Below are positions 10,784 through 58,457 of a stretch of DNA of 64,000 nt, piece by piece; the first letter of the stretch is position 1, and the number at the start of each line of letters is the position of its first letter. The position numbers were made by a program, and so were the translations under genes. Where the stretch lies: contig OZ024740.1 in assembly GCA_964016885.1 (NCBI GenBank), forward strand, positions 294,252,001 through 294,316,000, written 5' to 3'. Below the pieces are notes generated by a model, which was not told the DNA's origin, searched no databases, and saw only the letters and a program-made list of their open reading frames with translations. The stretch comes from Eledone cirrhosa (taxonomy: Eukaryota).

Positions 10784-10850
10784 TTTTTTATGCGCATTTC
10801 AAAAACAAATATCATCATGCAATAATATTTGTGTTTTCATCAGATAAAAC
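10784..10850 (-). ncRNA. Candidate type I hammerhead ribozyme (weak stem I)
   Basis: Minus strand reads CUGAUGA, long stem II, GAAA, palindromic ugcgca, UA. Stem I is only A-U pairs with a mismatch. Confidence 0.45.
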
Positions 10851-11151
10851 AGGAGGACATGATATGAAGGTTAAAAAACACTTGTGGATAGTTCAGTTTT
10901 AAATCAACATTGTTCTTATATATTATGTATACTCCAGTCCTACAAACTGTAGAGTGCTTCTTATCCGATATCTGCATTGCTTTATTGTACTACAATAAAA
11001 CTCACCTCCTACATATATATATATATACACACAAACACACAGAGACACACACACACACATATATATATATATAGGATAACAAGTTATCGTTATAGGTAAT
11101 CCAGTTAGAGGTTGTGAGTACTCTGCGTCGTGGATATATATACATATATAT

Positions 11152-11482
11152 CCATCGGTCATCCTCCATGCGCATCACATGTCCATACCACCTCAGTCTC
11201 CTCTAGTGTGCGAGAGAGGAGACTGAGATGGAATGGACATGTGATGCGCATGGAGGATGACCGATGGGTGAAGAAGTGCCAGGAAATGCCAGTTGAAGGA
11301 AGACATGGTAGAGGTAGACCACGAAAAACATGGGTGGAGGTGGTGAGAACAGACCTCAGATCGCTGAAGCTCACGGTGGAGATGACGAAGGACCGTGACA
11401 AGTGGAGAGATGCTGTGCTGAATAATACCCGTCCCACCCTTGCAAGCAGGGAAAAGCGGACGTAAAATGATGATGATGATGA

Positions 11483-11485
<3 letters not shown>
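11152..11485 (+). mobile_element. RTE family C 3' fragment with 5' foldback duplication
   Basis: [21 protein letters not shown]...; (GAT)n tail; 11152-11204 is an inverted copy of 11215-11267. Confidence 0.88.
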
Positions 11486-11517
<32 letters not shown>

Positions 11518-11519
<2 letters not shown>

Positions 11520-12562
11520 CTGCTTCCTTTCTTCTACCCACGCTTGCTCCACCCTGGTGAGCAGCATCCTCTCCTCTCCATCATGGACTAGTTCCAACAG
11601 GGCATTGGATGAAGTTCTGCAGCATTGGAGTGAGTTGGGCCTGTGGAGGTGGAGGACAGTCGAAGTCAGAGGGCTTGGGACAGCATAAGTTCGAAGGCCT
11701 CCTTCGACTCCCTCTTCATCCAGTCAGATCAGTTTGCCAGCGCCAAATACTCAGGTGACTGGGTTGATGCCCTACCTGTGGCTAACGTTGATGGCCTACT
11801 CAGCCTGGACAAACTTCATGTCTCCATTGCCCTCAGAGTTGGGGCTGATGTCAGCATGGGTCTAAGGTGTTGATGCAACAAACTCCTCAACTCACCAGTC
11901 CTCCATGGTCTTTCTTGTCGCCTGAATGCCGGTCGCTTCGCATGTCACACGGAGCTAAACCTTATTCTCAAGAGAGCTTTGACCTGGGCAAACACCCCCT
12001 CAATCTTGGAACCATCTGCTTTGTCCAGAAGTGACGGAAAAAGACCTGACGGCCTTACTCTGTGCCCCTGGTTGAGAAGCAGGTGCTTTATCTGGGACAT
12101 CACCGTTAGTGACTCTTTTGCTTCTTCCCACATCCTGGATGCAGCCAAATGGGGCAAAACCTTAAAATACAGTGATCTGTTGACCAACTACATTTTCTAG
12201 CCTGTGGCTTTCGAGACGTTTGGGGGAGTTGGGCTGCTGACTGCGAATTTCCTATCTTCACTGGCAGCTTGTCTAATAGAAGTAAATGGCGAATCTTGAG
12301 AGGGTGCTTGGTTGTTCCAGTGCATCAGCCTGGCCATCATCTGAGGTAGCGCTGCAAGTGTGCTGGCTTGCCTCAAAAATCATTAGAGAAGATTCCCGGT
12401 ACTCCTCGCAACGCTGCTGTCTTATATTTTTATACACAGCTTAGACATTATGTTTGCAATGTTCTTCTGAAAGTATTGTGAGCAATTTATAATGTTATTC
12501 ATGTATACATTTAAAACATATTTGTAATGTTATTCAACTGTAAATTTATACAACTTAATAAA

Positions 12563-12565
<3 letters not shown>
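11518..12565 (+). mobile_element. CRE-like non-LTR retrotransposon 3' part (zinc finger plus RLE), decayed
   Basis: SGDWVDALP...ALRVG...HGLSC...H..LN...RSDGKRPDGLTL.PW...WDITVSD...AFETFG; AATAAA followed by (TA)n. Confidence 0.78.
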
Positions 12566-12593
<28 letters not shown>

Positions 12594-12612
12594 CATACAT
12601 ATATATATATAT

Positions 12613-13976
12613 ATCATCATCATCATCATCATCAACGTTTAACGTCCGTGTTCCACGCTTGCATGGGTTTGGACGGGGGTATTCCCACTTGAGGCAAGAG
12701 TGATTGTCTTGCTCGCATAGGACTGTCTGGCAGGTTTTCTACAGTTGGATGCCCTTGCTAACACAACCACATTTACAGTGTGGGTCTGGGAGGTTTTTAC
12801 CGTGTTGCCTACACGGCCACATTACAGCGTGGACTGTGTGTTTTTTTTGTCGTGACACCTACACGATCTCATTTGTTTCGGCCTGGATGGCGCGGCACCA
12901 ACATAATGGCGCGGCACCAACATAACTTACATAGAACGGGGTGGTGTGGATGGGGTGGGGTGGTGGGATGGGGTGTATTTTGTTAGAGATGCCTACTGGC
13001 TGTAGTAGGTTTTACTATGTATTTAGGTAAGGCGGGTCTTCTCTGTTACTGAGTACCGCCAAAGGTCTCGGTCCAGTGACATTGTCTTGGAGAGGTGTAA
13101 GTGTGTGAGGTCGGAGTTTATCAGCTCGTCCCAGGTTTTTCTAGGTCTGCCTATTCCGTGGCTACCGTCTATCTTTATTGCCCTGCACTTTGTTATACAG
13201 CTATCGACTTTCATGCGCATCACGTGTCCATACCAACGTAGCCTTCTCTCGAGTAAACAACATCTGATCCCTCTTATTTCTAATTTTTTCCTTAGTTCGG
13301 TTATGCTTTGCCGTTCACGTATATTACTGTTACACATCCAGCGGAGCATGCAAGCTTCGTTCCTCTCTAGTCTGCATATATCCTCTGCACACAATGCCCA
13401 GGTCTCACTGCCATGCAACATTGCTGTTCGTATGCAGGCATCATACAACCTGCCTTTCATTTTTAGGGAGAACCCTTTAGCAGCTAATAGTGGTATAAGC
13501 TCTCTGAACTTTTTCCAACTGGTTCTGACTCTAGCTACTGTACTTTCAGAGCACACTCCCCCACTGCTGATTTTGTCGCCCAGGTAACGGAAGCTGTCCA
13601 CTATTTCCATAGAACCCTCTGCGCAATTGAAAGAGCTAGTATTTTGTGGGCACTTGCTGCTACTTATTGCACCAGAGCACCGGCCACATGTAAAATATAT
13701 GTTCTTAGTTAGCTTACCTGTGATCCCACTACATCTTTTATGCACCCATACTTTGCATTTGGGACATAAAATGGAGTTTCTACCTACGCCTTTCCTACAC
13801 ACTGAGCATGGCCATTTCCCAGAAGGGACCGCCGCCTTATTTTCTTTCCTACAAACTAGAACTTTAGTCTTAGCCAGGTTAATTTTAAGTCCTTTTGATT
13901 CTAGGCCGTGCTTCCATGTTTGGAATTTCTTCTCTAGCTCGGCCATTGATTCAGCTATGAGTGTCAGGTCGTCTGC
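12613..13976 (-). mobile_element. RTE family A, 5'-truncated
   Basis: ORF 13023-13946 is nearly identical to the C-terminus of 23267-24928; 3' UTR and (GAT)n tail present; both ends lie in (TA)n. Confidence 0.92.
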
Positions 13977-14042
13977 ATATATATGTATGTATATATATAT
14001 ATATATATTGGAAAATGTGTGTAATCCTTGGTACAGTTAGGT

Positions 14043-14415: not shown

Positions 14416-16530
14416 TGTAGCAACGCTGGTTAGTTAGTCTAGTCACTACTTCTGATCAGATCCGAGAATAGTCCTTAGAAGGACTGTTATCGCATAGGGT
14501 CTGATCAGATATGAAGATAGCCCTTAAAAGGACTGTTGTCGCATATAGCTCTTAAAAGGACTGTTGAGGATGGACAGACGAAAGCACAAGGTGAAAGGAC
14601 GAAGCAAGGTGAGATGTAAATTCGATCAGCTATTTATTTTCAGATGAAGCGACGATACGAGATACAAGGCGTGTGAGTGACAAAGCGTGGCAGAGTAAAG
14701 GAACAACGATGCGTTAGCTGACTCTGCCAAAAGTCGACTGGCGAAAGTGTTTGGAACCATTCTATTTATACAGGAACAATCCTTTGTTGTTTAGTCGATG
14801 TGTAGGCGTTTATTCTGGTAGGGTCTTATTCTGGTAGGTTCTAATTCTGGTAGGTTCTAAGGGTTCTTTTGTTTCACGTTGAGTAGCTAGCTAACAGGTA
14901 GATGGCGCTGTATATTTCACAGCTGTTATTTCCGGTGGCTGTACATTAGCCCCCTGCCAATTCTTTTGTACAACAAAAGAGCGAAATATCGTATAGGAAT
15001 GGGCCAGTGGTGCATTTGTCATGACAATAGCCCCAGGAGTGTCCAGCACGTTGTGAAATGTTGTGATCATCGAGTACAGGACAGAGTCGATGTAGAGATG
15101 ATATGGCAAGATGTGTGTGTCAGGAACAGAAAAAAGAAATAAACTATAAAATGACTTTGACCAGATTTATGCAGGCGTGATGAATGAGCCTGTTGCAATT
15201 TCGGTTGAGCTGCCTGTGAATTGCGTGACAAAAAGTCTAACTGTGCAGTGAAGATAACCGTAATGTGTGAACTGAATGGCCGTAAGCATGCTGCCTAAAA
15301 GTAACAGTTTGCTCCACAGCATATGACTTGAGCGAATGCATGTGGTAAAAAAAATAGCGAGGCATTCTCGAGCTATTGAGTGAATGTGTACGTGAAAAAA
15401 AAAAAAGGCCAGTGTTTTGAGGATGCGATTTGTGAAATGCGTGATCAAAGAGAAAACATTTTGTAGTGTAAGAGTTAGAGGGACACAACTATCTATTGCT
15501 CAGTGTATGAACCAAAAGGTGAAACAAATGTGGTTTTGTAGTGTGCATGAAAAACAGGATATGTACACGCCTTGTATGTATATAAAAATTATGGCAATTA
15601 CACAATCAATGTTACAGAACAAGAAAAATACAAATTTTGCAAAACAAGAGAGAGAAGAAAAAAAAAATGTTATACACAATGATATACACAATGTTTGTTC
15701 TTAAATAGTGTTTGTAATAAATAATGTTCATAATAAATAATGTTCTTCGAGACATGAGCACATGGTCACTAAAAATTGCAATTGTTCAAGCAGAAAGTTC
15801 ATTGTATTTGAAACTGGAAATAGTAAACACAAGAAAAATGGAAATGTTTTGCACGAAGAATGATTAAGAAACTCACTTGAGGTTAACGGTAATTCACATA
15901 TTGTGCCAACTTTGCGGGCCAATGGACGCGTCGTCCGCTTCTCGTGACTGGAGATGAAACAGGTGGCTCGCTGGGACAGCAATCTGTTGGAGTTTCTGGT
16001 GTAGAGACTGTAACAGTATCCATGATGGCTTTTTTGATTCTGTCCACGCTGACAGAATTCTGTTTACCATCTAGATCGAGAATAAAATATTTCGGATATT
16101 TTTTTAGAACACGATAAGGGCCAGAATATGGAGGTCGAAGATGAGCTGAGATGGTGTCGTTTCGAACGAAAACGTGTGTCCAATCTTTAATGTCTGAAGG
16201 TACGTGTGTGGCTGTGTTCTGTTGATGGGTGCTTGCAGGAGCAAGGTGAGACATATATTGTCGAAGACGGTGTACGTATGATCCTGGGTCTGGAACATCC
16301 TGAGGAGAGATGGGAGCAACCATCTGACCAGGTAGAACCAGGGTGGTGCCGTACACTAATTTTGCAGGTGTGTGTCCGAATTCCTCTTTAACGGTGGATC
16401 GAATGCCCAGAAGGATGAGTGGTAGGTATTCAAACCAGTGTGTCTTGTCTGGATATGCTTTTATTGCAGCTTTCAATTGGCGATGGAATCTTTCCACGAG
16501 ACCATTAGCTTGAGGGTGATAAGCTGTCGT
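14416..16530 (-). mobile_element. Gypsy LTR retrotransposon 3' half (integrase C-terminus, PPT, 3' LTR 14416-14945)
   Basis: TTAYHPQANGLVERFHR...PYSGPYRV (GPY/F motif) at 15883-16530. On the minus strand, purine tract ggcagggggctaa precedes LTR TGTACA...TGCTACA. Confidence 0.88.
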
Positions 16531-16955
16531 GCTACTGTACGTCTGTATACATATATGTATGTACGTATACATACATACTTTCATTTAAGTAAGTGCCGTA
16601 CTAAGAGTGAGAAATGAAATTTCGTTTCATTCTATTCCATTTATCGTTTTCGGTGCGCCTGGCCGACTGAACTCACTCGATATGCAAATTAGGCTGCTCA
16701 GCCGTTAATTTCCATAAGAAAAGTATATACTTTCGGACGTTCAACCATCTGGCAGAAAGGTATACGGTGCTGACGATAGCTAACAAGCTTGAAACTAGTA
16801 CATCGTTCCTGTGTCAGTGTTGAACAAAAAGGTGACGTGGTTGCCTAAACACTGTATGGTGTAAATCAGGCTGTTCGTTTGTTTACAAACGAACAAAGCG
16901 AACATTATAATAAATGTTCGGTAAACTGATACGTGCATATATATATGTGTGCTTG

Positions 16956-16994
<39 letters not shown>

Positions 16995-17052
16995 GTGCTA
17001 CTGTACGTCTGTATACATATATGTATGTACGTATACATACATACTTACATTT
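16528..17052 (+). mobile_element. Non-coding 466-bp unit with terminal direct repeat and hammerhead ribozyme (retrozyme- or pLTR-like, family D)
   Basis: 16528-16585 is repeated at 16994-17052; internal hammerhead; related copy at 20978-21410. Confidence 0.7.
16764..16806 (+). ncRNA. Minimal type I hammerhead ribozyme
   Basis: acggug CUGACGA u agcu aaca agcu u GAAA cuag UA caucgu. Stem I has 6 bp; predicted cleavage after GUA at 16800. Confidence 0.8.
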
Positions 17053-17060
17053 ATATATAC

Positions 17061-17115
<55 letters not shown>

Positions 17116-17424
17116 CATGCACATATATATATATATTATATTTACATATATTTATACATATGACTGCGTATGTGTGTAAATATACATATTCACGGGGTCG
17201 ATAAAATAAAGTACCAGTAATGCACTGGGTAATTGCTGGCCTTGTGCCTAAAGTAGAAACATTTGTTTACTTTTGAAGGTGTTTAACTGTTTCCTACCTT
17301 TTTATTTTTCTCACCAATCAAGTGAAATATAACAGAAAGGACATTTTTCTTTACAAGAAGAAATTAAAATAAACAAATCTGGGTGACACATTAAATGAGA
17401 AAGAAATACAGTACTAAGAAAATC

Positions 17425-17852
17425 TAGATATCACCTCCCCTCTCTCTATAAATATTACCTTGATATCATCTCTCCTTAGTCTAAAAGTATTATCAAGATA
17501 TCACCTGTCATCAGTCTACAAATTCTATTTAGATATCACCTCCCCTCTCTCTACAAATACTATCTTGATATCATCTCTCCTTAGTCTACAAATACTATCT
17601 AGATATCACCTCTACTTAGTCTACAAATACTACCTAGATATCACCTCCCCTCTCTCTACAAATACTACCTTGATATCATCTCTCCTTAGTCTACAAACAC
17701 TATCAAGATATCACCTCTCTTTAGGCTACAAATACTATCTAGATATCACCTCTCATCAGTCTACAAATACTACCTTGATATCATCTCTCCTTAGTCTACA
17801 AATACTATCTAGATATCACCTCTCCTCAGTCTACAAATACTATCAAGATATC
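17425..17852. repeat. 35-bp minisatellite, about 12 copies
   Basis: GATATC recurs every 35 nt; unit agatatcacctctcctcagtctacaaatactatct. Confidence 0.92.
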
Positions 17853-17857
17853 ATAAA

Positions 17858-19008: not shown

Positions 19009-19011
19009 AAG

Positions 19012-19062
19012 AGCTTCTACAGGACTAGAACTGTTTCATTCGTGAGAAATCATCAGGAAGCT
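19012..19062 (-). ncRNA. Type I hammerhead ribozyme at the end of repeat family H (19012-19340)
   Basis: agcuuc CUGAUGA u uuc ucac gaa u GAAA cag uucuaguc cug UA gaagcu; all three stems pair. Confidence 0.85.
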
Positions 19063-19340
19063 GGCTGTCCAAGTAAGTGTGGTGGTGGTATTTATATCTT
19101 TTCTTTTCGGGTGGTAGGAGAGGGTGGGGATTGGGATGGGTGGAGGTCATTGGTTGATGGATTTAAAGAAAAGGGAGTTAATTAAAAGCTAATTCTTTAG
19201 AGCTATAATATTAACAAAGGCAGAAAATATACTGTAGACAAATTCAAATTTGAATACCAATCCTTGTTTATCTCTTAAACTAACAATGCCTGTAAGTCAG
19301 GTGTCTACAGGATGGGTGGGGTTCATTGGTTTAAAGAAAA

Positions 19341-19477: not shown

Positions 19478-19760
19478 TTGTTGAGAAGATTGGTTAAAAT
19501 TTGTTAAAATTTGTTGTAAACACAAATAAGTCTATCGTGGCATTTGGTGGAAGGGAGGGAGGGGTGGCTGAACTTGCCTGTAGAACAATGAGGGAGTGAG
19601 TGGAGCCGTCAAGCGTTGAAAGTGAAATCTATACAGCATATTCTAAGGATAGTGTATGAAAAGTCGAAAAATTGTTCTGGAGAAAAAGGAGGAGGCAGGT
19701 TATAATAGGTAAGTCAAATGGGAGTGGGAGATAATAAAAAATAATAGAAAGAAATATATA
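19478..19760. repeat. Unclassified interspersed repeat family F
   Basis: Near-identical copies at 25547-25870 and 35137-35380. Confidence 0.8.
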
Positions 19761-19764
19761 TATA

Positions 19765-20211
19765 TAAACAATTAAGTTAAAGTGTACATCTACATATGTA
19801 TACGGAAGTATTAGTATGCATATAAATACACACATGTATACATATGTACATGTACTGAGTTTTTCACTAGACACTTTACAGTGAGTGTCAGCTAGTCTGT
19901 ATGTAACCACACAGACGGACCGGGTTTTAGAGTCATACGAGTCTTCAAGGAAACACATTTCCTCTATTCTCCAAAGAGCCAGACAGGGAGGGGGGGCCTC
20001 TCTGGAGAATAGAGGAAATGTGTTTCCTTGAAAACTCGTATGACTCTAAAACCCGGTCCGTCTGTGTGGTTACATACAGACTAGCTGACACTCACTGTAA
20101 AGTGTCTAGTGAAAAACTCAGTACATGTACATATGTATACATGTGTGTATTTATATGCATACTAATACTTCCGTATACATATGTAGATGTACACTTTAAC
20201 TTAATTGTTTA
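19765..20211. repeat. Foldback palindrome with about 214-bp arms
   Basis: 19765-19978 versus 19998-20211, about 2 mismatches; mirror ORFs 19629..19958(-) and 20018..20212(+). Confidence 0.92.
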
Positions 20212-20279
20212 AGCGTCAGTCATACAAAAGTGAGTTAGAAGCGAAACGAAATTTAATTTCGTTTCGTTATTTGTTTTTA

Positions 20280-20487
20280 TATATATATATATATATATAT
20301 ACATATATATACACATACATGTGTGTGTGTAAACGCATACACACATATATGTATACATATATATACACACACACATACACATATAACATATATATACAAA
20401 TACACACATATATATATATACATATACACACAAATACAAGCACATATACACATATACACACACACATATATATATATATACACAGAT

Positions 20488-20937: not shown

Positions 20938-20977
<40 letters not shown>
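20280..20977. repeat. Compound (TA)n/(CA)n microsatellite (similar tracts at 38645-39060, 40615-41125, 44450-44570, 57545-57808)
   Basis: Directly visible in the sequence. Confidence 0.95.
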
Positions 20978-20982
<5 letters not shown>

Positions 20983-21410
20983 AGAATGAAACGAAATTTC
21001 ATTTCTCACTCTTAGTACGGCACTTACTTAAATGTAAGTATGTATGTATGTATACGTACATACATATATGTATACAGACGTACAGTAGTATGTATATATA
21101 TACATACATGCACACATATATATATGCACGTATCGGTTTACCGAACATTTATTATAATGCTCGATTTGTTTGTTCAAACAAACACCCCGAATTATCTTAA
21201 AAAAAAAAAAAAAAAATGTGACGTGGCTGTCTAAATTGTACGGCGTAATTCGGGCTGTTTGTTTGTTTACAAACAAACACACTGAGCATTATAATAAATG
21301 TTCAGTAAACCGATACGTGCATATATATATATGTGTGCATGTATGTATATATATACATACTACTGTACGTCTGTATACATATATGTATGTACGTATACAT
21401 ACTTACATAA
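20978..21410. mobile_element. Family D partial copies in inverted arrangement
   Basis: The minus arm (20978-21195) and plus arm (21215-21410) both match 16528-17052. Confidence 0.8.
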
Positions 21411-21429
21411 TTATATAAACTACCCCAAC

Positions 21430-24400: not shown

Positions 24401-25322
24401 TCTGAAAGTACAGTAGCTAGAGTCAGAACTGGATGGAAAAAGTTCAGAGAGCTTATACCACTATTAGCCGCTAAAGGGTTCTCCCTAAAAATGAAAGGCA
24501 GGTTGTATGATGCCTGCATACGAACAGCAATGTTGCATGGCAGTGAGACCTGGGCATTGTGTGCAGAGGATATATGCAGACTGCAGAGGAACGAAGCTTG
24601 CATGCTCCGCTGGATGTGTAATAGTAATATACGTGAACGGCAAAGCATAAACGAACTAAGGAAAAAATTAGAAATAAGAGGGATCAGATGTTGTTTACTT
24701 GAGAGAAGGCTACGTTGGTATGGTCACGTGATGCGCATGAAAGACGACAGCTGTATAACAAAGTGCAGGGCAATAAAGATAGACGGTAGCCACGGAGTAG
24801 ACAGACCCAGAAAAACCTGGGACGACCTGATAAATTCCGACCTCACACACTTACACCTCTCCAAGACAATGTCACTGGACCGAGACCTTTGGCGGTACTC
24901 AGTAATAGAGAAGACCCGCCTTACCTAAATACAAAGTAAAACCTACTACAGTCAGTAGACATCTCTAACAAAATACACCCCCGTCCCACCTCCCCCACCC
25001 CATCCACACCGCCCCTTTCAATGTAAAGTTATGTTGGTGCCACAACATCCAGGCCGAAACAAATGATATCGTTTAGGTGTCACGACAAAAAAAACACACA
25101 GTCCACGCTGTAATGTGGCCGTGTAGGCAACACGGTAAAAACCTCCCAGCCCCACACTGTAAATGTGGTTGGTGTTAGGAAGGGCATCCAGCTGTAGAAA
25201 ACCCGCCAGACAGTCCTATGCGAGCAATGACAACCACTCTTGCCTCAAGTGGGAAAACTCCCGTCCAAACCCATGCAAGCGTGGAACATGGACGTTAAAC
25301 GATGATGATGATGATGATGATA
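21430..25322 (+). mobile_element. Near full-length RTE LINE family A (APE-RT-PHD-like finger) with two premature stops
   Basis: TMNVGTL, IQETRW, AYAPQ, GDLN, QVDYIL (EN); VDLEKAFDRV, GVHQGSVLSP, YADD (RT). TAG stops at 22180 and 23177. (GAT)n tail. 5' boundary approximate. Confidence 0.95.
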
Positions 25323-25870: not shown

Positions 25871-26074
25871 AAAATATATATATATATAGATAGATAAAAT
25901 TAGATAGTGAGAAATGAATAAAAAAAAAACAACAAAAAAAACAGCAGAGTCTAGAAACAGCTGCTCTAATTAGTAGGTGTTGCTTGTACAGCCAAAGCTA
26001 TAGAAAAGGTTAATAAGTTGAGAATGGAAAATACTAAATAAGAAATTGTAGAAGTGGGTAGTGAAAAAATATAA

Positions 26075-26255: not shown

Positions 26256-28725
26256 ACGAAAAATATAATGCAAAATTTTCAGGGGTCTAACACAGCTGCT
26301 ATAAATAGTTAGTTAAGTGTTTTCCGCCAATGCTATCTTACAATTACAGGTTAATAAGTTAAGGATAGAAAATACTAAATAAGAAATTTTGAAATTGTAG
26401 AATTGGAGTAGTAACAAAAATGATACAAAATTACAGTTGTCTAACACATCTGCTATAAATGGTTAGTAAAGCGTATTTGGCCAATTCTATCTTAAAATTA
26501 CAGGGGTGGGGGTACTGAGGCTACAGAGGCCCGATGGGCTGCATCGGAGTAGGCGAAAGGGGAAAAACAGACGAGGAAGAAGATCGGGGGGTGGAAGGAA
26601 GTGATAGGATGAGTCAGGGGGAAGAAGAAAACATATATACATATACATATATATATATACTTGGGGAGGGTCATATTTGTGTAATATTGCCAAAATTAAT
26701 AACAGAACACACTCACTGTTTGGTTGGTTTTCGCTTCTCAAAAATACCCAGATAACATCGACAATATCCGTATGACTGATGTAAAACTACCGGAAGAATT
26801 TACCAATGACCACACAGTAAATATCTATGGGAACACTTTAATCAGTGAACAAGAACAACAAATCCTGCGGCTACCACCAAAATTTGCCATCTACAAAAAG
26901 ATTAACCCTATGGAGTGCAAAACGGAGCTGGAAAAGTGTTTCACAAAAATACGTTGGAATGCAAAGGTAAACAACAACAACAATAATAACGGTAGTAGTA
27001 ATATAAACAATAACTCTGAGTATAGAAATAACAGCCATAACTATAACAATAGCAGGAAAGTGAGAAATAGTGATAATGGTAATAATACTAGCGATAGACA
27101 GAACAACAACAACCACAATAATAATAATAATAATTGTTACTACTTTTGGCACAAGGCCAGCAATTACTAGCAATCATAACAATAATAATAATGCTAATGA
27201 TAGAAACAACAACAACCACCCTGATAACAATAATAGCAACACACACAACTATGACGATAGATATAATGACAACCCCTTAGAGAAACTATTTTTCAGCCCA
27301 GCTGACAAAACATATAAGATGGGTAATATCTATCCTACGAGGTTACCCTTTAATAAAAGAGTTTGCATACCACAACAAATAGATGACGAGACAGAGGCAC
27401 AGTTCACCATAGCTAGAAATAAGATTAGACAAATAGTAGACAGGTATACTAAGAGACAGAGCAGACCAGAGGCCCAACAACTTGGGAGGAAACCTGTAGA
27501 AGGCTTGGTTAGCCTCAAGCAGCGCACAAGGGATGGTGAGGTAGTGTGTCTACCCACAGATAAGTCTGGTAGGATGTCAATAGATAGCATGCCGAACTAC
27601 ATCGAGGCTATGCAACCCCACATCACCAACACGAGCGAAATTGCACAACAAACACACGATGGGAGAGAAAAAATCCTCAACGCTCACATGATGATGTGGA
27701 CTGACATCCTAAAGCCAAGCAGACGCACTGCCAACAACTTCCAGGCGTCTAACAATGGCATACCACCCTTGTATGGGCTCCGCAAAGACCACAAGACAGT
27801 CGACGACCCGACAACAGGACCACCAACAAGACCCGTATGCGGAGCTAATATAGTTAGCAACTACAGGATCTCCTACTTCCTCTCAATGGTTATACGCCCC
27901 ATAATCAAGATGTCCCCAGATGTATGTGACAGTACAGAGGACCTCCTCAGCAGAATCAGTGAGTGCAACAAAAACGGGAGCCTATCCAACTGCATAATAG
28001 GCAGCATGGATGTGGTGTCACTGTACCCATCCATTAACATTGATTTTGCTGTGAAAAGATGTGTGGAGATGATCATTGAGAGTGAGGTGGAGTTCTGCGA
28101 CGTCGACACAGACGAACTGGGCCTCCTACTTAGACTTACCTACGACACTGACTACTTAGACAGCCATGACCTTAGATGTTTCTGCCCTAGTAGACCTATA
28201 AGAGGTAGACCCCCCACCATAACCTCAATCACAAAAGACTCCCATGGGAAGGTGGATTGGGTGGATCAAAGCTATACGGACCCCCCAAAACAATGATCAG
28301 GTAAAAAAAAAAAAAATAGTCGCACATGCAATAGGGGCTAGTATCAAAACTACCCTAAAGGGCCACATATTTAAGTTCAACGAGAAAATCTACACCCAAA
28401 ATGAGGGAGCAGCCATCGGCGTCAGCATAGCTGGTGATGTTGCCAACCTTTTCATGGTATGGTGGGAAAGGAGACTTAAAGATCTCCTTAATGAAAGCTC
28501 CATAGACCTCATCATGTACTCTCGTTATGTAGACGATATCAATATAGTTATAAGAACACCCCCACTAGAGGGTACTAACAAGTTTGATTTAGAACGTAGC
28601 ACGATGGAAAGCATCCAGCAGATAGCTAATTCCATACACCAGAGTATAACTGTAACTATCGACTTCCCTTCCAAACACCCTAACAATAGACTACCTGTAT
28701 TAGACACAGAACTCTGGATTAACAC

Positions 28726-30809
28726 TATAGCGGGGTACTAGCGTGTATGAATGTAACAAGGAGACATTGTTTGTGTGTATAATATTTAATCAACAATTTA
28801 ACAGTATAGTTGACATGTCAATGAAATAGATGAAAGAATGAAGCAAAGTTAGTAGTTACCGTTTTGATTGCCAGGCAAACGCGAGACGCCTGGCAAAGGC
28901 CAGGCGCCGGAAGGGCAAATGAGAGGGTGAGAACTTAAAGTTATTAGTTTTATAGGGTTCTGACCGGAAGTTACAGAAAGGGTTCTACTTCCCGTCTAGA
29001 TGTTGTTAATCTATTGGGGTTGTGAGTCACAACAAGAGAGGCAACTGCTACATAACCTCCCGCCAGAATTTTAGAATATAAAAATCGAATGAAACATGTA
29101 GCAAGTTGGCGAGAATGTTGTAACAGCATGAAAATTACGACAAAAGAATGTTTTCAAAAATCAATGATAGATATCAAGGTAGCCAACCGCTCTTGGCCAG
29201 AGAACGACTGGACATCTATCTATCCATCACCCAAAGATACAATGTAATAAAGTAAGAGAAGAGATCAAAGTTCAAATGTACAAAATATAGTTCACATGAC
29301 AGCAGGAAAGAAAGTGTGTTCCAGAGAATGAATGCAGGTGGTTTCTGTTCTGTGGTATATTGTGAAATTTCCAACCTCCGAATGGATTTTCTCACAGGAA
29401 GAGTGCTGCAAAAATAAATTCTCTGGCTTGTTCTGCTGGTTTTGGTTGTTGGTGAAGCTGTGTTGCTGTTGATGTTGTTGTCTCGTGGAGTGAGCGTATT
29501 CGGTGTTTAAATTCACAGTAAAAAAATTTTTTTAAGAAAAAATGAGTTGCGCAAAGTGCTAGAAATAACAGCCGAAGTTGATGGTCGATGTTGAGAATGC
29601 GTTGACCTGGAAGGGTCAAGAGGCCAGCGACCAAAGAAATAAGCATTCTGAATAAATGCGCAGTTTTCAACGGCAAATTTACGTGGTAAATTTGTAAACC
29701 GGCAAATAGGAGAATATAGCTTAAGGCTGAAGAATCCTTGGCGAGAAACGTTATCTCTGGTGCGCGGCTATCTCTGTGAGTCGAGATATCTCCGTGAGTT
29801 GAGAATTTGTGCTGCCTACACGTGCCAATACAAGGTTAAGTTAGGTTGAAAAAAACACTATTTCTAACGCGCGAGAAAATGAAAGTGCAACAGGTCGTTG
29901 GCAGCAATTTTGAAAAAAATGTGTGTGTGAAAGTGACAATTATGAAAAAGAAAGGCTTCACTTAGCATAATTATTGGTGTGAACTTTGAAAAAAAACTTG
30001 AACGATGAAGGAAACGATGAAAAAAAAAAGGCAATGGTTCATCGAAAATAAATGTTCCTGTTGAAATGTTTTTAAAAAAAAAAAAATATCAAATTTCTTT
30101 TTTTTTTTTTGAAAGTGTTCGTTGTAGGAAACGAGAAACACATATATATCGTGAAATGCGACAGTTAGTTGATGCGTGAGAGAAAAAGTCTGTCTGAACG
30201 CGAATTTCACATGTGCGTGGTGTGTTCGTTTCTTGGAGAAACATATATATATATACAGCAAACTGCGACAGTTAGTTGATGCGTGAGAGAAAAAGTCTGT
30301 CTGCACGAAAGTTTCGCATGTGCGTTTCTTTGACTGAGTATTTTCATAGTTTGTCAATAAATTTGCTGTGTATTTGTAATGTTACTCACACAACACCAGA
30401 TTCTGCTATTTTTTTCTTTTTTCGGGGTGTCGCCAATGTAGCGATGAACGGCTGCATGTTCGTATCACGTCAGGGTTACCAATATAGCGGAGAACTCGTG
30501 TGTATGAATGTAACAAGGAGACATTGTTTGTGTGTATAATATTTAATCAACAATTTAACAGTATAGTTGACATGTCAATGAAATAGATGAAAGAATGAAG
30601 CAAAGTTAGTAGCTACCGTTTTGATTGCAAGGCAAACGCGAGACGCCTGGCAAAGGCCAGGCGCCGGAAGGGCAAATGAGAGGGTGAGAACTTAAAGTTA
30701 TTAGTTTTATAGGGTTCTGACCGGAAGTTACAGAAAGGGTTCTACTTCCCGTCTAGAAGTTGTTAATCTATTGGGGTTGTGAGTCACAACAAGGGAGGCA
30801 ACTGCTACA
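28726..30809 (-). mobile_element. Non-autonomous LTR element (LTRs 28726-29052 and 30437-30809; TSD ACAC)
   Basis: Near-identical direct repeats ending TGCTACA; ACAC at 28722-28725 and 30810-30813; PBS-like TGGCGAC and PPT ggcgggagg on the minus strand; no gag/pol recognised. Confidence 0.9.
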
Positions 30810-32003
30810 ACACTATAGACGAGAGAGCCCAAATTCTCCACTCACACTATGCTAAACCCATGGCCTCCAAATACCTGATACTCAAAAACTCAGCAATGTC
30901 CAGTACTGCTAAGTTTAATATTCTGATCGCAGATTTGGTACGAGTGATGAAGAATGTGTCCCGCATGTGCGACCCAACAGAAATGGAAAGACACATCCAA
31001 CACTTCATCAACCGCATGCAGTTCTCTGGCTACAACCAAAGAGACAGAGTCAGAGTATACGAAGGAGCCATGGAAAAGTATAAGACTCTCATAGAACTGG
31101 ACACGAAAGGAATTTGCCCATTATACAGGAGCAAATCATGGAATAGCTTAGATAGGGCTAGACATAAGATAGGGAAAGCCACCTCATGGTACGACAACCA
31201 GAGATACCAGAGTGTCATGTTTGTGGACGCCACCCCTGGAGGGAAATTAGCTAACCAGTGTAGAAAGGCCCTGAGAAAGACCCACTTAAAAATAAAGGTG
31301 GTAGAAAAGCCAGGAACCACCATAAAATCCCTGATCAGCAAAACCTACCATTTTAAGAAAACCCACTGTACCAATAGGAAATGTATCATATGTAAGGTGA
31401 ACCCCCGGATAAACTGTAAAACTAGAAACGTAGTCTATAGCATAAGATGTACAGAGGGTACTTGCAGAAACATGACAACAACATACATAGGTGAGACAGC
31501 TCGTAGCATAGGTGAAAGGATAGACCAACACTGGGGGGAACTAAAAGGACGAAAAAACGGGTCAGTACTATACGAACATGCTAGACAACAACATGACGGT
31601 AACATAAACAACATAGAAATTAGAATAATATCTAAACATAGAAATGACACAGCAGATAGGCAAATCAGAGAGGCCAGTGAAATAGAACTTAGAAGGCCAA
31701 GGCTAAACAGAAAGAATGAATGGAATAACAACAACACCCACACAAACAACACTGACCTAAGAGAAGTATAAATAAGTAAATAAAATAAGATAAATAAATA
31801 AATAAATACATACACAAGCACAATAACAAGCACATAAACACACACTAGTCACCCATCACACAGCAAACAATACTATACACACACGCAAACGCATGCGCAA
31901 AGAAGACAAAATAAAATAAACAAACAAGCAAATAAATAAATAAATATATAGACAGACTGAATAAAAATGGTGTAGACATACAACATAACAGGAGGAAAAT
32001 ATA

Positions 32004-32040
32004 ACACCACTGACGATGTTGCAGATGTGCAACGAAAGAT
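32004..32040 (+). ncRNA. Partial hammerhead core in the PLE 3' region
   Basis: CUGACGA u guugca gaug ugcaac GAAA. I could not close stems I and III by eye. Confidence 0.45.
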
Positions 32041-32310
32041 TTATGATAAACTATATATATGTGTTTGTGTCTATATTGTATCTGTATTATTTTTGACCGT
32101 CGGTCAGTCAATGGCAACATTGAGAACCGAGTAAGTTAGATTACCGATATAAAAGACAGCAAGAAGCGAAAACCAACCAAACAGTGAGTGTGTTCTGTTA
32201 TTAATTCTGGCAATATTACACAAATATGACCCTCCCCAAGTATAACAATATTTGTTTCGACACACGATTTCATATAAAAAACCTCGCAAAACTAATTTAT
32301 ATATATATAC

Positions 32311-34310: not shown

Positions 34311-34319
34311 TAGAATTTT

Positions 34320-37667: not shown

Positions 37668-37702
37668 TATATACACATATACACACACACACATATATAT
37701 AT

Positions 37703-37796
<94 letters not shown>

Positions 37797-43703: not shown

Positions 43704-43756
<53 letters not shown>

Positions 43757-43844
43757 ATTTATATGTATGTTTGTTGTGTGTGTGCATGCCTGTGTGTGCT
43801 TATGTGTGTATGTGTGTAAGTGGGTGTGTGTGTCAATGTGCTTG

Positions 43845-44350
43845 TTGACACCTGGAATATAAATTAAGAGAAACTTCACAATAAGGGGAAGCACCCCAAT
43901 ACTTAGAACCCTTTCAGCCTTAAAGATTTAGCTTCTAAAGAATTTCCCTTTTCTTTAAACCAATGAACCCCACCCATCCTGTAGACACCTGACTCACAGG
44001 CATTGTTAGTTTAAGAGATAAACAAGGATTGATATTCAAATTTGAATTTGTCTACAGTATATTTTCTGCCTTTGTTAATATTATAGCTCTAAAGAATTAG
44101 CTTTTAAAGAACTCCCTTTTCTTTAAATCCATCAACCAATGACCTCCACCCATCCCAATCCCCACCCTCTCCTACCACCAGAAAAGAAAAAATATAAATA
44201 CCACCACCACACTTACTTGGACAGCCAGCTTCCTGATGATTTCTCACAAATGAAACAGAAGCTCTTCTATATTAAAACATTTATACTCTGCTATGTTTTG
44301 AGTACCTTACTTACTGTGGTTATCCCCGACTCAACCCGGAATAACTTATA
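43845..44350 (+). mobile_element. Repeat family H copy with deletion-broken hammerhead (44227-44263)
   Basis: 43950-44265 is the reverse complement of 19012-19340; 14 nt of stem III are missing. Confidence 0.75.
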
Positions 44351-44483
44351 TATATATATTGCAAGCAGGGAAGAGCGGACATAAATGATGATGATGATGA
44401 TGATGATATATATATATTTATAAGTAGTTCCACAACAGTTAGTTCACCAATATATATATATGTATGTATATATGTATTATATG

Positions 44484-44880: not shown

Positions 44881-44942
44881 ATATATGTATTATAGTAGAA
44901 CACAGATAGGTTATATCTGTAGTTGTAGAGCACTCGGTTTAC

Positions 44943-44985
44943 ACCGAGCTGATGATCCGAATAAGGTGAAACAATTGTTCTCGGT
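44943..44985 (+). ncRNA. Minimal type I hammerhead ribozyme (family J)
   Basis: accgag CUGAUGA u cc gaauaa gg u GAAA caauug UU cucggu; palindromic stem III; predicted cleavage after GUU at 44979. Confidence 0.75.
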
Positions 44986-45090
44986 AATGGTGAACTAATT
45001 GTTGTGGAATTACTTTACCAAATTCGTCCCATGGACTGAGTGCTCTACTACTATGGACCTACCTATGGACCTACCAATTATATATATATA

Positions 45091-46109: not shown

Positions 46110-48593
46110 AAACCTGCCAATCACCTAATAACCTACAGATCTGGTGAGCACATAAGCCAGATTGACTTCTTACTAGTTAGGCAGCGGGACAGGCAGATAG
46201 TGTCTAATACCAAGGCATACCCTGGGGAAGAATGTACCCCACAGCATAGGTTAGTTGTTAGTGATATCTCAGTAAGCAAGAGATGGAATGAGACATATAG
46301 GAAGGTGTGGAGAAGAAAGGTCTGGAAGCTAAAAGACCTTTCACTAAAATACAAATTTAGGAAAGCCCTTCAAGATGTATATGACGAAAAAGAAGACGAT
46401 TTAGAGACTATGACATAGATAATAACTGGAATTTCTTACGTGACAACTTGCTGCAGGCTACTGATGAAACTTGTGGCTGGAGCAGAGCTCCAACCAGACA
46501 GAGAGTGACCTGGTGGTGGAACAGCACAGTAGATAAGGCTATTAGAGACAAAAGACTAGCATGGAAGGCTTGGAAAAAGGGTGGGAGTAGGGAAGAATAT
46601 ACAGCCACTAAGAGAGAAGCTAGACGTCAGGTGTACTTAGCATGCAGGAAGGCAGAGAGTAGGAGGTTTGCCAATGTTCTGCGATGGGAAGATCAGAGGC
46701 GTGCGGTGTTCCACATTGCAAGGCAGTGTGTCAATGCAAATCAGGATGTTGTTGGAGATAAATGTGTCTGGGATGATGCCGGTGTACTTAGTGTCACGAA
46801 TGATCAGAAAAAGGAGGCCTGGAAATGTCATTATGAGAGACTGATGAATGTGAAGAACAAATGGGAGAGAGAGAAATTACCCTTGGTAGATCCGACAGAG
46901 GGACCAGCTATTGAGATTGACGAATATAGGGTCCAAGAGGCGATTAGGGAAATGAAAAATGGTAAGGCTGCTGGACCATCGGGAATAGTTGCTGAGATGC
47001 TGAAGGCATCAGGGGATGTAGGCACTAAACTGGTTGCACGCATCATCAATCAGGCTATATATGGTGGTGTCATACCCAAAGACTGGTGCAGCAGTATTCG
47101 CATAAATTGCTACAAAGGTAAAGGGGATGCTCTGGAGAGGAGCAATTATAGGGGTATAAAACTGATAGATCAGGTTATGAAAGTGGCAGAAAGGATTTTA
47201 GCACAACTAATTAGAGAAAGGGTCAAACTAGATGAGATGCAGTTTGGTTTTGTGCCTGGGAAGAGTACAACAGATGCCCTCTTCTTGGTGAGACAATTGC
47301 AAGAGAGGTTCTTAGAGAAGAATAAGCCACTATACTTAGCCTTTGTTGACCTAGAGAAGGCCTTTGATAGGGTACCCCGATCTGTCATCTGGTGGTCCCT
47401 AAGGAAGCTAGGTGTTGAGGAATGGCTTGTGAGGACAGTGCAAACTTTGTACAGAGGTACTCTCAGTAAAGTCAGGGTAGGAATGGAGTTTAGTGAGGAA
47501 TTCCAGATACAAGTAGGAGTACATCAGGGTTCAGTCCTCAGCCCACTCTTGTTCATTATAGTCCTCCAAGCCATAACAGAGGAGTTTAAGACTGGCTGTC
47601 CGTGGGAACTTCTCTATGCTGACGATCTGGTTCTTATAGCAGAATCAGTAGAGGAGCTAGAGAATAAATTCTGGCTATGGAAACAGCAGTTGGAAGCAAG
47701 AGGACTGAGAGTGAATCTAGCTAAGACAAAAGTGTTGATGAGTAGAAAAGAGGACAAAACCCTGATTCCGTCAGGGAAATGGCCATGTTCGATATGCAGA
47801 AAAGGAACTGGCATAAATTCTATAAAATGCACACAATGCAGATCCTGGGTACACAAGAGATGTAGCGGGATAGCAGGCAAACTAACAGGTAGGGAGAAAT
47901 ATGTATGCAGTAGATGTACAGGGAAATTAGACAGTAGAAGTCGCATTGATAGACACATTTTTCAGATGCAGGAGGGCGCTATAGAAGTGGTGGATAGCTT
48001 CCGGTACCTAGGAGATCAGATTAGCATGGGAGGAGGGTGTTCCGAGGCCATAGTATCTAGAATAAGGACGGGTTGGAAGAAGTTTAGGCAGCTGCTTCCT
48101 CTGCTGACGAAGAAGGGTTTCTCCCTGCGTACGAAAGGCCGGTTGTATGATGCCTGTGTGAGGAGCGCGATGCTGCATGGTAGTGAGACATGGGCAGCAA
48201 CTGCAGAGGATATGCGACGGCTGGAGAGAAATGAGGCAAGCATGCTCCGTTGGATGTGCAGTGTAAATGTGCGTGAACGACCCAGCATAAATGTCTGAGA
48301 GGGATAGAATGTAGTGTACGGGAGAGGAGACTGAGGTGGTTTGGACATGTGATGCGCATGGAGGATGACCGATGGGTGAAGAAGTGCCAGAAAATGCAAG
48401 TTGAAGGAAGACGTGGTAGAGGTAGACCACGAAAAACATGGGCGGAGGTGATGAGAACAGACCTCAGATCATTGAAGCTCACGGTGGAGATGACGAAGGA
48501 CCGTGATGAGTGGAGAGATGCTGTGTTGAATAAGACCCGTCCCACCCTTGCAAGCAGGGAAAAGCGGACGTAAAATGATGATGATGATGATGA
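46110..48593 (+). mobile_element. RTE family C, 5'-truncated
   Basis: 616-aa RT plus PHD-like ORF at 46448-48298; very short 3' UTR; (GAT)n tail. Confidence 0.94.
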
Positions 48594-50079: not shown

Positions 50080-50217
50080 CAAGAGACAGAATATGACTTC
50101 AGAGGTTCAAACCTTGTTTTTTCTCAATCGTTTTATTTTATTTCCCCTTATTCCTGTTTTATCATGTCCAGAGTCCCATGTGAACCAGAAATATAGATGT
50201 TGTCATTGTCGTCGAAA

Positions 50218-50607
50218 TCTAGATAGTATTTGTAGATTAAAGAGAGATGATATCTAGGTAGTATTTGTAGACTAAAGAGAGATGATATCTAGGTAGTATT
50301 TGTAGACTAAGGAAAGAGGGGATATCTATGTAGTATTTGTAGACTGGGGAGAGGTGATATTTAGGTAGTATTTGTAGACTGAAGAGAGGTGATATCTAAG
50401 TAGTATTTGTAGACTGAGAAAGGTGATATCTAGATAGTATTTGTAGACAAAGGAGCTGTGGATATTTATGTAGTATTTGTAGATTGGGGAGAGGTGATAT
50501 CTAGGAAGTATTTGTAGACTGAAGAGAGGTGATATCTAGGTAGTATTTGTAGACTAAAGACATGATATCTAGATAGTATTTGTATATCACCTCTCCTCAC
50601 TCTACAA
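50218..50607. repeat. 35-bp minisatellite, same family as 17425-17852, opposite strand
   Basis: gatatctaggtagtatttgtagactgaagagaggt repeats; ends in one inverted partial unit. Confidence 0.9.
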
Positions 50608-56347: not shown

Positions 56348-57177
56348 ACGTGTAGGTTGAGATATATGAGACTGAGAAGAAAAGACAGTATATAGGTTTC
56401 CTATTAATGATGATGTTGTAATACAAATATTAATACTTATCATTCCTTTTGATTAATCAAGACAGTTCTTATGTGGTTCTACATGTAAGGAGATATTATT
56501 TTGATATTTTTTTTCCAAAGTTATATATTTTCACTGAATGGGAATGCATAGATTTTTAAAGAAATAGAAAGAAAGTGACATCCTGAACCAGTATCCTCCA
56601 TCTCCAGCTAACAGGATAAAGAATACATTGCTCCAGAGGATGGCAAGGGAGATGCACAAAAACAGCCACTCCACCTCATGGGGCTCGTTATAGAAAGTGC
56701 CAACTCTGCTCCAATAGTAAATATTTATAGAGCAAGGATTCGGAAGTGAGAAGTATTGAAATATGAGACTCTAGTCGTTCTATTAAAAAAACAAATATCT
56801 AAGTACTATCACAAGTTCCTTTACACAAACACTTACCAACTTACCAATACCCCCCCCCCCCACACACACACATACACATCTCTCTATATGTATGTGGGTG
56901 AGTAGATGTAAAGGAGAGTGGATGAGAATAACCACATTATGTAATGCTTTTTTAGTTACCCATATAAATTCACACGCACACACACATATCATTATCATTT
57001 TATACCCATTTATCCATGGTTGCATGAGTTAGAAATATATATATACAGTGATGATGACGATGATGATGATGATGATGATGACGATATATATCATCATCAT
57101 CATCATCATCATCACCATTTAACATCTATTTACCATGCTAGAATGACTTAGACGATATATAATAAATATATATATAT

Positions 57178-57208
<31 letters not shown>

Positions 57209-57544
57209 CATCATCATCATCATCATCACCGTTTTACGTCCGTTCTTCCACGCTAGCATGGGTTAGACAGGTTGTCCTGTTGTGGGCAGTGTCTGGTCGG
57301 CTGACCATGCCTTGCTCATACAGGAACTGATCTGGCTTGATTTCTACAGCTGGATGCCCTTCCTAACACCAACCTCATTTACAGTGAGTGCTGGGTGCTT
57401 TTTCGTGGCGCCTACACGTCCACTTTACAGTGTGGGCTGGGTGCTTTTTTGCCGTGGCACCTCCACGACCACCTTGCGGTGGGGGGAGTGGGGGCATATT
57501 GTTTATATGCTTCAGCATGTACCCATGGGAGGTCGGGTACCCTG

Positions 57545-57545
<1 letters not shown>
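57209..57545 (-). mobile_element. RTE family B 3' UTR copy
   Basis: Matches 34790-35110. Confidence 0.88.
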
Positions 57546-57582
<37 letters not shown>

Positions 57583-57808
57583 TATATAATATATATATAT
57601 AATATATATATATAATATATATATATAATATATATATATAATATATATATATAATATATATATATATATAATATATATATATATATAATATATATATTTA
57701 TAATATATATATAATATATATATATATATAATATATATATATATATATAATATATAATATATATATATAATATATAATATATATACATATATACACATAT
57801 ATATATAC

Positions 57809-58178
57809 ATTAGAAATTAGAAATTATAAGCTTTCACCGTATTTTAGACTAAAGAAATTTCTAGCCTGATAGTGGGGTTTATAACCCTCGGAGAAATGGA
57901 AAAAGATGAGTGTTGCCATACATGGGAGTCGAACCCACATCTTTGGTTATCCAGACCACTGTGCTACCATTACACCAATACACATCCCAATACACATCGG
58001 GATGTGTATTGGTGTAATGGTAGCACAGTGGTCTGGATAACCAAAGATGTGGGTTCGACTCCCATGTATGGCAACACTCATCTTTTTCCATTTCTCCGAG
58101 GGTTATAAACCCCACTATCAGGCTAGAAATTTCTTTAGTCTAAAATACGGTGAAAGCTTATAATTTCTAATTTCTAAT
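57809..58178. repeat. Perfect palindrome (180-bp arms) of a tRNA-like element
   Basis: 57809-57988 versus 57999-58178; A box TGGTGTAATGG and B box GGTTCGACTCC on each arm. Confidence 0.93.
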
Positions 58179-58257
58179 TTCAAACTCGCGCACCGTTTCA
58201 AAAACATACTTACATGTTTACGTTTATAATATATATACATATATATATATATATAAT

Positions 58258-58306
<49 letters not shown>

Positions 58307-58309
<3 letters not shown>

Positions 58310-58457
58310 TGGTTACACAACAGTTAGTTCACCATACTGAGAACAATTGTTTCACCTTAGCGGATCCTCAGCTCGTAAATCTGATTTACGAGCTGAGGAT
58401 CCGCTAAGGTGAAACAATTGTTCTCGGTATGGTGAACTAACTGTTGTGTAACCACTT
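58307..58457. ncRNA. Palindrome (75-bp arms) carrying two divergent minimal hammerheads (family J)
   Basis: cgag CUGAGGA u cc gcuaa gg u GAAA caauug UU cucg at 58389-58426, with its mirror at about 58338-58375; centre 58382. Confidence 0.78.

What the first reader, a model, noticed from the sequence alone, without database searches (positions are those of the whole stretch)
10784..58457. Several unrelated small non-coding elements each carry a type I hammerhead ribozyme with a shared U-U-closed stem II
Seen: foldable CUGANGA...GAAA...UH cores at 16764(+), 19012(-), 44943(+) and 58389(+, with a minus-strand mirror); weaker ones at 10784(-), 32010(+) and 44227 (broken). They fall in at least three unrelated sequence families (D, H, J), and all four good ones close stem II with U-U. 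Established: Penelope-like elements (PLEs) carry type I hammerheads in their pLTRs, and minimal variants with a palindromic stem III cleave as dimers. Inference: a diverse set of non-autonomous ribozyme elements mobilised into TA tracts by PLEs such as the one at 26656-32292.
Basis: partly seen in the sequence, partly recalled or inferred. Interest (0 to 1): 0.75.

Follow-up and report, generated by a model that had tools for sequence, protein, structure and literature searches.

The report
Hydra-Penelope ends and one retrozyme
These are mostly ordinary: two of the three repeat families are cut-short tails of protein-coding Hydra-type Penelope jumping genes, the third is a protein-less ~470-base tandem repeat (a likely retrozyme), and the U-U pair shared by their predicted self-cutting RNAs is already tabulated for this group of jumping genes.

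Summary
The four hammerhead cores, their U-U at the base of stem II and the predicted cut sites are real (4 hits versus 0.017 per shuffled window). Families B (19012, 44227) and C (44943, 58389) are 5'-truncated 3' ends (pLTRs) of autonomous Hydra-clade Penelope-like elements: a C motif follows the endonuclease in 29 of 30 loci, and B runs straight into a Hydra ORF. The weak 10784 site is a damaged end of a third Hydra family. Only A (16764) is non-autonomous: a closed 456-474-nt tandem unit with a U6-like promoter box, i.e. a likely non-LTR retrozyme. U-U is not new: 14 of 25 published Hydra hammerheads and a tested axolotl retrozyme have it; here 12 of 31 sampled motifs do, and A's sister family has G-C. 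The window's own Penelope element is Neptune-type with a different motif. Cleavage is untested. This scan already noted Hydra ends, retrozymes and the U6-like box on other DNA of this genome.

The parts
16528..17053 (+). Family A copy: about 1.1 units of a ~470-nt non-coding tandem unit (likely non-LTR retrozyme); 16528-16587 repeated at 16994-17053
16681..16730 (+). U6-like promoter candidate: 12-nt octamer-type box at 16681 and TATA-like box 42 nt later; predicted start about 16754-16759
16759..16811 (+). Hammerhead A: 6-bp stem I plus bulge, U-U + 3 bp stem II, 6-nt loop, palindromic stem III; predicted cut after 16800
20972..21416 (.). Fold-back remnant of family A without hammerhead
19009..19340 (-). 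Family B: truncated 3' end (pLTR) of a Hydra-clade PLE, bounded by other repeats; hammerhead 19062-19012, U-U + 3 bp stem II, 4-bp stem III, predicted cut after 19018
43740..44359 (+). Second family B end, starting in the TA/TG tract of the 3' UTR and stopping at the long end; hammerhead 44227-44262 lacks 14 nt
44419..44452 (-). Short inverted family C fragment
44886..45078 (+). Family C two-armed insertion (inverted long-end arm 44886-44938, then sense arm); hammerhead 44943-44985, predicted cut after 44979
58304..58528 (.). Family C fold-back insertion: short-end arm on - (58304-58375), long-end arm on + (hammerhead 58389-58428, predicted cut after 58422)
10745..11025 (-). Family E two-armed end of a third Hydra-type PLE; long stem II closed by A-U; stem I damaged (10784-10851)
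26645..32296 (+). Broken Neptune-type PLE (RT, CX4CX2C linker, C-terminal GIY-YIG) with inverted 5' arm; pLTR motif at 32004-32055 has bulged U, G-C and almost no stem I
19765..20280 (.). Fold-back remnant of A2, the G-C-closed sister retrozyme of A

Best explanation
The 19012/44227 and 44943/58389 motifs are the terminal repeats of two protein-coding Hydra-clade Penelope-like retrotransposons, left behind as 5'-truncated, often folded-back stubs in TA tracts, and the 16764 motif lies in a protein-less ~470-nt tandem unit that is likely a retrozyme copied in trans by Penelope-type enzymes; all are predicted, not shown, to self-cleave, likely as dimers. Steps: (shown) pLTR position relative to the ORFs, closed tandem unit of A, TA-tract insertion, two fixed 3' ends per family, conservation of core and stems while N7 and loop II vary. 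(Inferred from established PLE biology) transcription through partial tandems, hammerhead cleavage, target-primed reverse transcription at (TA)n giving two arms and 5' truncation. (Inferred) A is transcribed from its own U6-like promoter, cut to unit length, probably circularised and copied more than once round; a Hydra enzyme is the likeliest partner (about 55%). U-U is a tolerated substitute for the first pair of stem II, probably inherited in B and C and reached separately in A.
For: C: intact core 193-304 nt behind the endonuclease match in 27 of 30 loci, BLAST match in 29 of 30 (one is the seed locus); 170-193 nt behind the stop of 551-628-aa frames in L262-L264; pLTR running into the ORF start in L027. 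B: pLTR 90% identical to the window copy runs directly into a Hydra ORF start in L093; inverted ORF abuts B in L091, L092, L101; the 78%-identical sister subfamily precedes intact 758-759-codon frames in 8 of 10 loci picked for long frames, with a complete pLTR-ORF-pLTR copy in L167. Hydra hallmarks RWR, DKT, CxCX5C, CxxC, CxxC/CxH, TA targets. A: same-strand spacing 456-474 nt in L036/L102, L055/L103, L164 (shorter or longer spacings of 230, 445 and 518 at rearranged junctions) and no PLE frame inside the unit. Selection: compensatory C-G to A-U in B stem I (31 vs 28 of 64 contexts), G-U to U-G in A, five pair changes between A and A2, N7 in three states in C; in run X1 the only variants of 10% or more inside 16764-16806 are N7, loop II, and both partners of one stem I pair. 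U-U precedent: 14 of 25 Hydra families in File S2 of PMC8557442; axolotl HHR_Amex2 cleaves 22% as monomer and much better as dimer (PMC7229834 section 15).
Against: No cleavage or expression data. Minimum-energy monomer folds do not reproduce the full hammerhead junction for A, B or C. Rfam scores are under the cut-offs. Pfam barely sees the Hydra proteins (GIY-YIG E 0.069 for one of three), so clade assignment rests on motifs and on comparison by eye with the paper's Hydra-1_Obim text, not on a tree. For the window's exact B subfamily no unbroken ORF-stop-to-pLTR copy was seen; the link is the 5' junction and inverted junctions. In PMC4209133 G10.1-C11.1 is called highly conserved and PLE hammerheads cleave poorly in vitro; in the 2026 preprint 8 of 9 Xenopus retrozyme dimers did not cleave. 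A's box-to-TATA distance is 42 nt against 46-48 in U6, whole-region alignments to U6 upstream are mostly not above shuffles (p 0.015-0.75), and A has T4 runs that could stop Pol III before a full unit. Two fixed ends are seen in the Neptune element too, so they do not name A's partner.
Confidence: 0.85

Rival explanations
1. All three families are non-autonomous ribozyme elements mobilised by PLEs such as the Neptune element in the window.
For: Most copies are short and have no ORF beside them: of the 30 best B and 30 best C loci only a few showed ORF pieces; all insert in TA tracts; true for A.
Against: ORF links for B, C and E; upstream ends of B and C copies are ragged, as for 5' truncation, and do not close into a unit; the Neptune motif differs.
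Confidence: 0.07
2. Family A is also just the pLTR of an autonomous PLE not yet found, expanded locally as a satellite.
For: Only 40 of 2827 first-look candidates were scored; the 2026 preprint derives retrozymes from pLTRs.
Against: Past its long end A continues into its own unit, where B and C continue into an ORF; 0 of 50 A contexts had a sense Hydra frame within 1.5 kb upstream; 3 had Neptune pieces beyond TA tracts or inverted arms; dispersed two-armed insertions argue for retrotransposition.
Confidence: 0.1
3. The U-U motifs are catalytically dead relics or protein-binding signals rather than active ribozymes.
For: Non-canonical 10.1-11.1 pair, 2-3 bp stem II, weak folds; low or absent in vitro activity reported for relatives.
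Against: Core invariant while N7 and loops vary and stems compensate; a U-U retrozyme hammerhead was shown to cleave.
Confidence: 0.15

Closest known systems
Hydra clade of C-terminal-endonuclease Penelope-like elements (Craig et al. 2021, PMC8557442; passages, section 11, supplement part 2 and search passages read)
   Same: Single RT-GIY-YIG ORF with RW(K/R), DKT, CxCX5C motifs; (TA)n targets; hammerhead in the pLTR; partial tandems, inverted 5' arm, tail; U-U at the base of stem II in 14 of 25 listed families.
   Different: Family B has a 3' UTR of about 2.7 kb filled with ~2 kb of TA/TG repeat (listed Hydra elements are mostly under 3 kb in all); tails here are 59-90 nt against the 30-40 bp quoted; the B and C hammerheads differ from the Hydra-1_oBim motif in the table.
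Metazoan non-LTR retrozymes (Cervera and de la Pena 2020, PMC7229834, section 15 and passages read; Li et al. 2026, bioRxiv 10.64898/2026.07.22.740005, parts 1-3 of 5 read)
   Same: Family A: non-coding tandem unit with one canonical-geometry type I hammerhead per unit; axolotl HHR_Amex2 has the same U-U at the base of helix II.
   Different: Unit is larger than the 220-390 nt examples in the 2020 paper, contains a (TA)n tract, inserts with PLE-type inverted arms, and has a U6-like box; circular RNA not shown here.
Minimal PLE hammerheads (Cervera and de la Pena 2014, PMC4209133, parts 1-2 of 4 read)
   Same: The 32010 motif: bulged base after A9, G10.1-C11.1, 6-bp helix II, very short helix I, like the Drosophila virilis variant.
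   Different: A, B and C have short stem II with U-U, no bulged base and 6-bp stem I.

Membership tests
Type I hammerhead ribozyme | CUGANGA / GAAA / UH core with stems I-III, open stem I | tested here: met
   met for 16764, 19012, 44943, 58389; not for 44227, 32010
Type I hammerhead ribozyme | R10.1-Y11.1 pair, usually G-C | tested here: not met
   U-U in 64 of 64 B, 62 of 64 C, 49 of 55 A/A2 contexts; precedent
Type I hammerhead ribozyme | Rfam gathering score | tested here: not met
Type I hammerhead ribozyme | Compensatory changes in stems | tested here: met
   B stem I, A stem I, A versus A2 stems I and II; none seen in C; counts are copies, each change is one event; no shuffle control run
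Type I hammerhead ribozyme | Self-cleavage at H17 | not testable with these tools
   needs an assay
Hydra-clade PLE (families B, C) | RT plus C-terminal GIY-YIG in one ORF next to the pLTR | tested here: met
Hydra-clade PLE (families B, C) | RWK-type, DKT, CxCX5C motifs; CxxC and CxH-type motifs at the endonuclease end | tested here: met
   read from translations, against section 11; RWR instead of RWK
Hydra-clade PLE (families B, C) | Phylogenetic placement of the RT | not tested
   no reference sequences were available to the tree tools
Hydra-clade PLE (families B, C) | (TA)n targets, partial tandems, inverted arm, tail | tested here: met
Non-LTR retrozyme (family A) | Non-coding tandem unit, one type I hammerhead per unit | tested here: met
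Non-LTR retrozyme (family A) | Expressed as linear and circular unit-length RNA | not testable with these tools
   no RNA run was on offer
Non-LTR retrozyme (family A) | Sequence kinship to the pLTR of a host PLE | tested here: inconclusive
   BLAST of A against 13 PLE- or retrozyme-bearing loci hit only A/A2 copies; most PLE families of the genome were not sampled
U6-type (type 3 Pol III) promoter (family A) | Upstream box and TATA at U6-like spacing | tested here: inconclusive
   box at -77 to -79 in 3 of 7 U6 loci shown (displaced or absent in 4), in 0 of 9 U1 loci; spacing 42 versus 46-48 nt
Neptune-clade PLE (26645-32296) | CX2-5CxxC linker before a C-terminal GIY-YIG with internal cysteines | tested here: met
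   definition

The most novel reading that the evidence does not exclude
Family A is a self-sufficient circular-RNA SINE: it carries a captured U6-type promoter that starts transcription at the foot of hammerhead stem I, 42-46 nt before the cut, so each excised circle keeps promoter and ribozyme together and is copied by Hydra enzymes; and the A/A2 pair (U-U versus G-C) plus three more families that switch between U-U and A-U form natural experiments showing that position 10.1 is free, a U-U closure serving as a tuned-down, dimer-dependent state.
Probability: 0.35. Interest if true: 0.55.

Novelty: new member of a known kind. Interest (0 to 1): 0.27.

Why it matters
It corrects the reading: the cluster is the normal background of a genome with roughly 230,000 such motifs (extrapolated from 31 in 400 kb), and most are truncated ends of Hydra PLEs. 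What stays useful: (1) intact 758-codon Hydra copies and a young (97-98% identical) retrozyme in one genome make the proposed but unshown PLE-retrozyme partnership testable; (2) natural U-U / A-U / G-C pairs in sister families test how much the 'conserved' G10.1-C11.1 pair matters; (3) standard Rfam thresholds miss these motifs; (4) how animal retrozymes are transcribed is open and A offers a candidate promoter.

Tried and rejected
Whole-window Rfam scan was swamped by TA hairpins; only 150 of 291 rows were shown, none a hammerhead. No RNA holder listed; run X4 laid nothing. Type III reading of 32010 rejected: the upstream complement of stem I is not preceded by UH. U1-type promoter for A rejected: box absent from 9 U1 upstream regions; U2 was not obtained. 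Four of five 'ORF upstream of E' hits are artefacts, because my query frame began in the inverted tail; only L093 counts. A unique island upstream of B in L094 is another repeat, not part of B. Two fixed ends as a marker of a Hydra partner rejected, since Neptune has them too. An ACUC-GAGU hairpin follows the short end in B, C and E but not clearly in A or Neptune, so it does not assign A. Papers not held: Lunse 2016, Cremisi 1992; they may bear on U-U variants and on promoters. Searches 'hammerhead + G10.1 + U10.1' and 'retrozyme + polymerase III + TATA + hammerhead' found 0 papers; 'hammerhead + octopus + ribozyme' listed 7, none on these families by title or abstract start. Supplements of PMC4209133 and PMC7229834 were not opened, and those of the bioRxiv preprint are closed; their figures may show further U-U cases.
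Full report
Observation. The window comes from a 3.0-Gb animal genome and is a mosaic of RTE-type, Helitron-like, mariner-like and Penelope fragments in TA tracts. A type I descriptor finds exactly the four 'good' sites, all U10.1-U11.1, with H17 at 16800, 19018, 44979 and 58422; 60 shuffles gave 0.017 hits on average and no U-U hit. 44227 has lost 14 nt with stem III and the cut site; the 58371 mirror and 10784 have stem I mismatches; 32010 has almost no stem I. Rfam scores stay below cut-off.

Abundance. DNA searches returned 2249 (C), 2827 (A), 2253 (B) and 793 (N) first-look candidates, 40 scored each. In 40 stretches of 10 kb at round-number positions the descriptor gave 39 hits; I dropped 8 with a U3-A8 core; of the 31 left, 12 (6 of 15 families by my grouping) are U-U, the rest A-U, G-C, G-U, U-A or bulged G-C. 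Four intact motifs in 64 kb, and three U-U families among five, are ordinary here.

Family C is a Hydra pLTR. Upstream of some copies lies a GIY-YIG C-terminus in sense. Searching with that protein gave 150 scored matches; in the 30 loci fetched, 27 have the intact core 193-304 nt behind the match and 29 match the window's C by BLAST, up to 100%. In L262-L264 it lies 170-193 nt behind the stop of 551-628-aa frames, and in L027 the pLTR runs on into the ORF start.

Family B is a Hydra pLTR. In L093 a copy 90% identical to 19016-19340 is followed directly by an ORF start with the RWR motif; in L091, L092 and L101 an inverted ORF abuts it. The protein search gave 69131 first-look candidates and many frames of 758-759 codons. 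In 8 of 10 loci picked for long frames a sister-subfamily hammerhead (78% identical pLTR) precedes the frame; L167 is complete: hammerhead, ATG 176 nt later, 713 aa, about 2 kb of TA/TG repeat, second hammerhead 2.65 kb behind the stop. That tract explains why the 43740-44359 copy starts in TA/TG. B and C proteins are 41% identical and show the Hydra motifs of PMC8557442 section 11. E follows a Hydra-type endonuclease by 1 kb in one locus, L093.

Family A is non-autonomous. Copies are 97-98% identical and form head-to-tail units of 456-474 nt with an internal (TA)n; beyond the long end the sequence returns to the unit. None of 50 contexts had a sense Hydra frame upstream; three Neptune pieces were separate insertions. 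Its hammerhead has canonical geometry if U-U counts as the first of four pairs. A 12-nt box 89 nt before the core equals or nearly equals a box at -77 to -79 of three distinct U6 loci, is absent from U1 upstream regions, and occurs twice in 400 kb of sample, both times in one other hammerhead-type repeat; a TATA-like box follows at 42 nt (U6: 46-48). This predicts a start at about 16754-16759. Spacing and T4 runs keep it inconclusive. Newt satellite transcripts are reported as Pol II products (PMC6765202, passages).

The U-U pair. File S2 of PMC8557442 writes the core as ctga-gat ... tgaa in 14 of 25 Hydra families (my count; two share one motif), without comment in the passages I saw. [quoted passage not shown] Here A's homologue A2 (about 70% identical, same loop II and stem III) has G-C, and three other families show both U-U and A-U copies. 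So U-U is probably inherited in B and C and reached separately in A; it is a tolerated state, not a badge of one system.

Selection and fold. Across subfamilies the core and U-U stay fixed while N7 and loop II vary, with compensatory pairs in B and A; contigs of run X1 (kind not on record, possibly the source of this assembly) show the same for A. Co-folding favours dimers by 3.7 (A), 8.2 (B) and 6.0 (C) kcal/mol over two monomers, but the minimum-energy folds are not the catalytic junction. All window copies are single on their strand, so they are probably inert products.

Insertion pattern. Ends followed by TA pile up at two places per family: A 63 and 122 (18 and 23 hits), B about 54-61 and 131-133, C 70 and 138 (29, 35), E about 100 and 190, N 71 and about 120 or beyond (not de-duplicated). 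Typically one arm ends at each (58304-58528, 10745-11025). This is the PLE tail plus inverted arm of PMC8557442. It shows that A uses PLE machinery but not which. A short ACUC-GAGU hairpin follows the short end in B, C and E.

The window's PLE. 26645-32296 is Neptune-type, interrupted by a 2.1-kb insert; its motif resembles the minimal PLE hammerheads of PMC4209133. It is not needed to explain B or C.

Verdict. New members of known kinds: two Hydra PLE families and one likely retrozyme. Earlier notes of this scan describe the same classes, and the U6-like box, on other DNA; look-ups by sequence found no look-alikes. Interest 0.27.

Noticed in passing
window 28713-30809: A ~2.1-kb insert with 340-bp direct repeats (96% alike; 28713-29052 and 30470-30809) splits the Neptune ORF; no Pfam hit in its two frames tested; LTR-like non-coding element.
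   Followed up: no
L167:6008-8657 and other family B loci: The 3' UTR of an intact Hydra family holds about 2 kb of TA/TG/CA repeat, so the element itself spreads microsatellite-like DNA and new targets.
   Followed up: partly
L272, L273: 310-nt tandem hammerhead unit, with A-U closure in one array and U-U in another.
   Followed up: partly
L243, L085, L044: Fourth U-U family (GAAA tetraloop, 1129 first-look candidates), mostly fold-back pairs; ORF link not established.
   Followed up: partly
L207:9723 and 441: Another hammerhead repeat with the U6-like box about 100 nt upstream of the core.
   Followed up: no
L092, L093, L165, L196, L239, L241: Several families fit the descriptor with a U3-A8 core.
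   Followed up: no
window 57672-58307: Long palindrome with two mirrored tRNA-Ser-like sequences (57914-57986 -, 58001-58073 +), next to the family C fold-back.
   Followed up: no
window 22172-24928, 33364-37851, 41533-42510, 46385-48298, 13023-14036: RTE-type LINE copies with a PHD-finger-like match just behind the RT domain.
   Followed up: no
window 59256-61021: Helitron-like fragment (PIF1 helicase, STPR repeats).
   Followed up: no
window 17422-17853 and 50214-50584: Two arrays of a 35-bp minisatellite containing CUGANGA without a hammerhead fold.
   Followed up: no
L287: A family B long-end arm lies directly upstream of a U6 copy.
   Followed up: no
window 19499-19766, 25547-25886, 35137-35380: A further dispersed repeat of about 340 nt in three copies, unclassified.
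   Followed up: no
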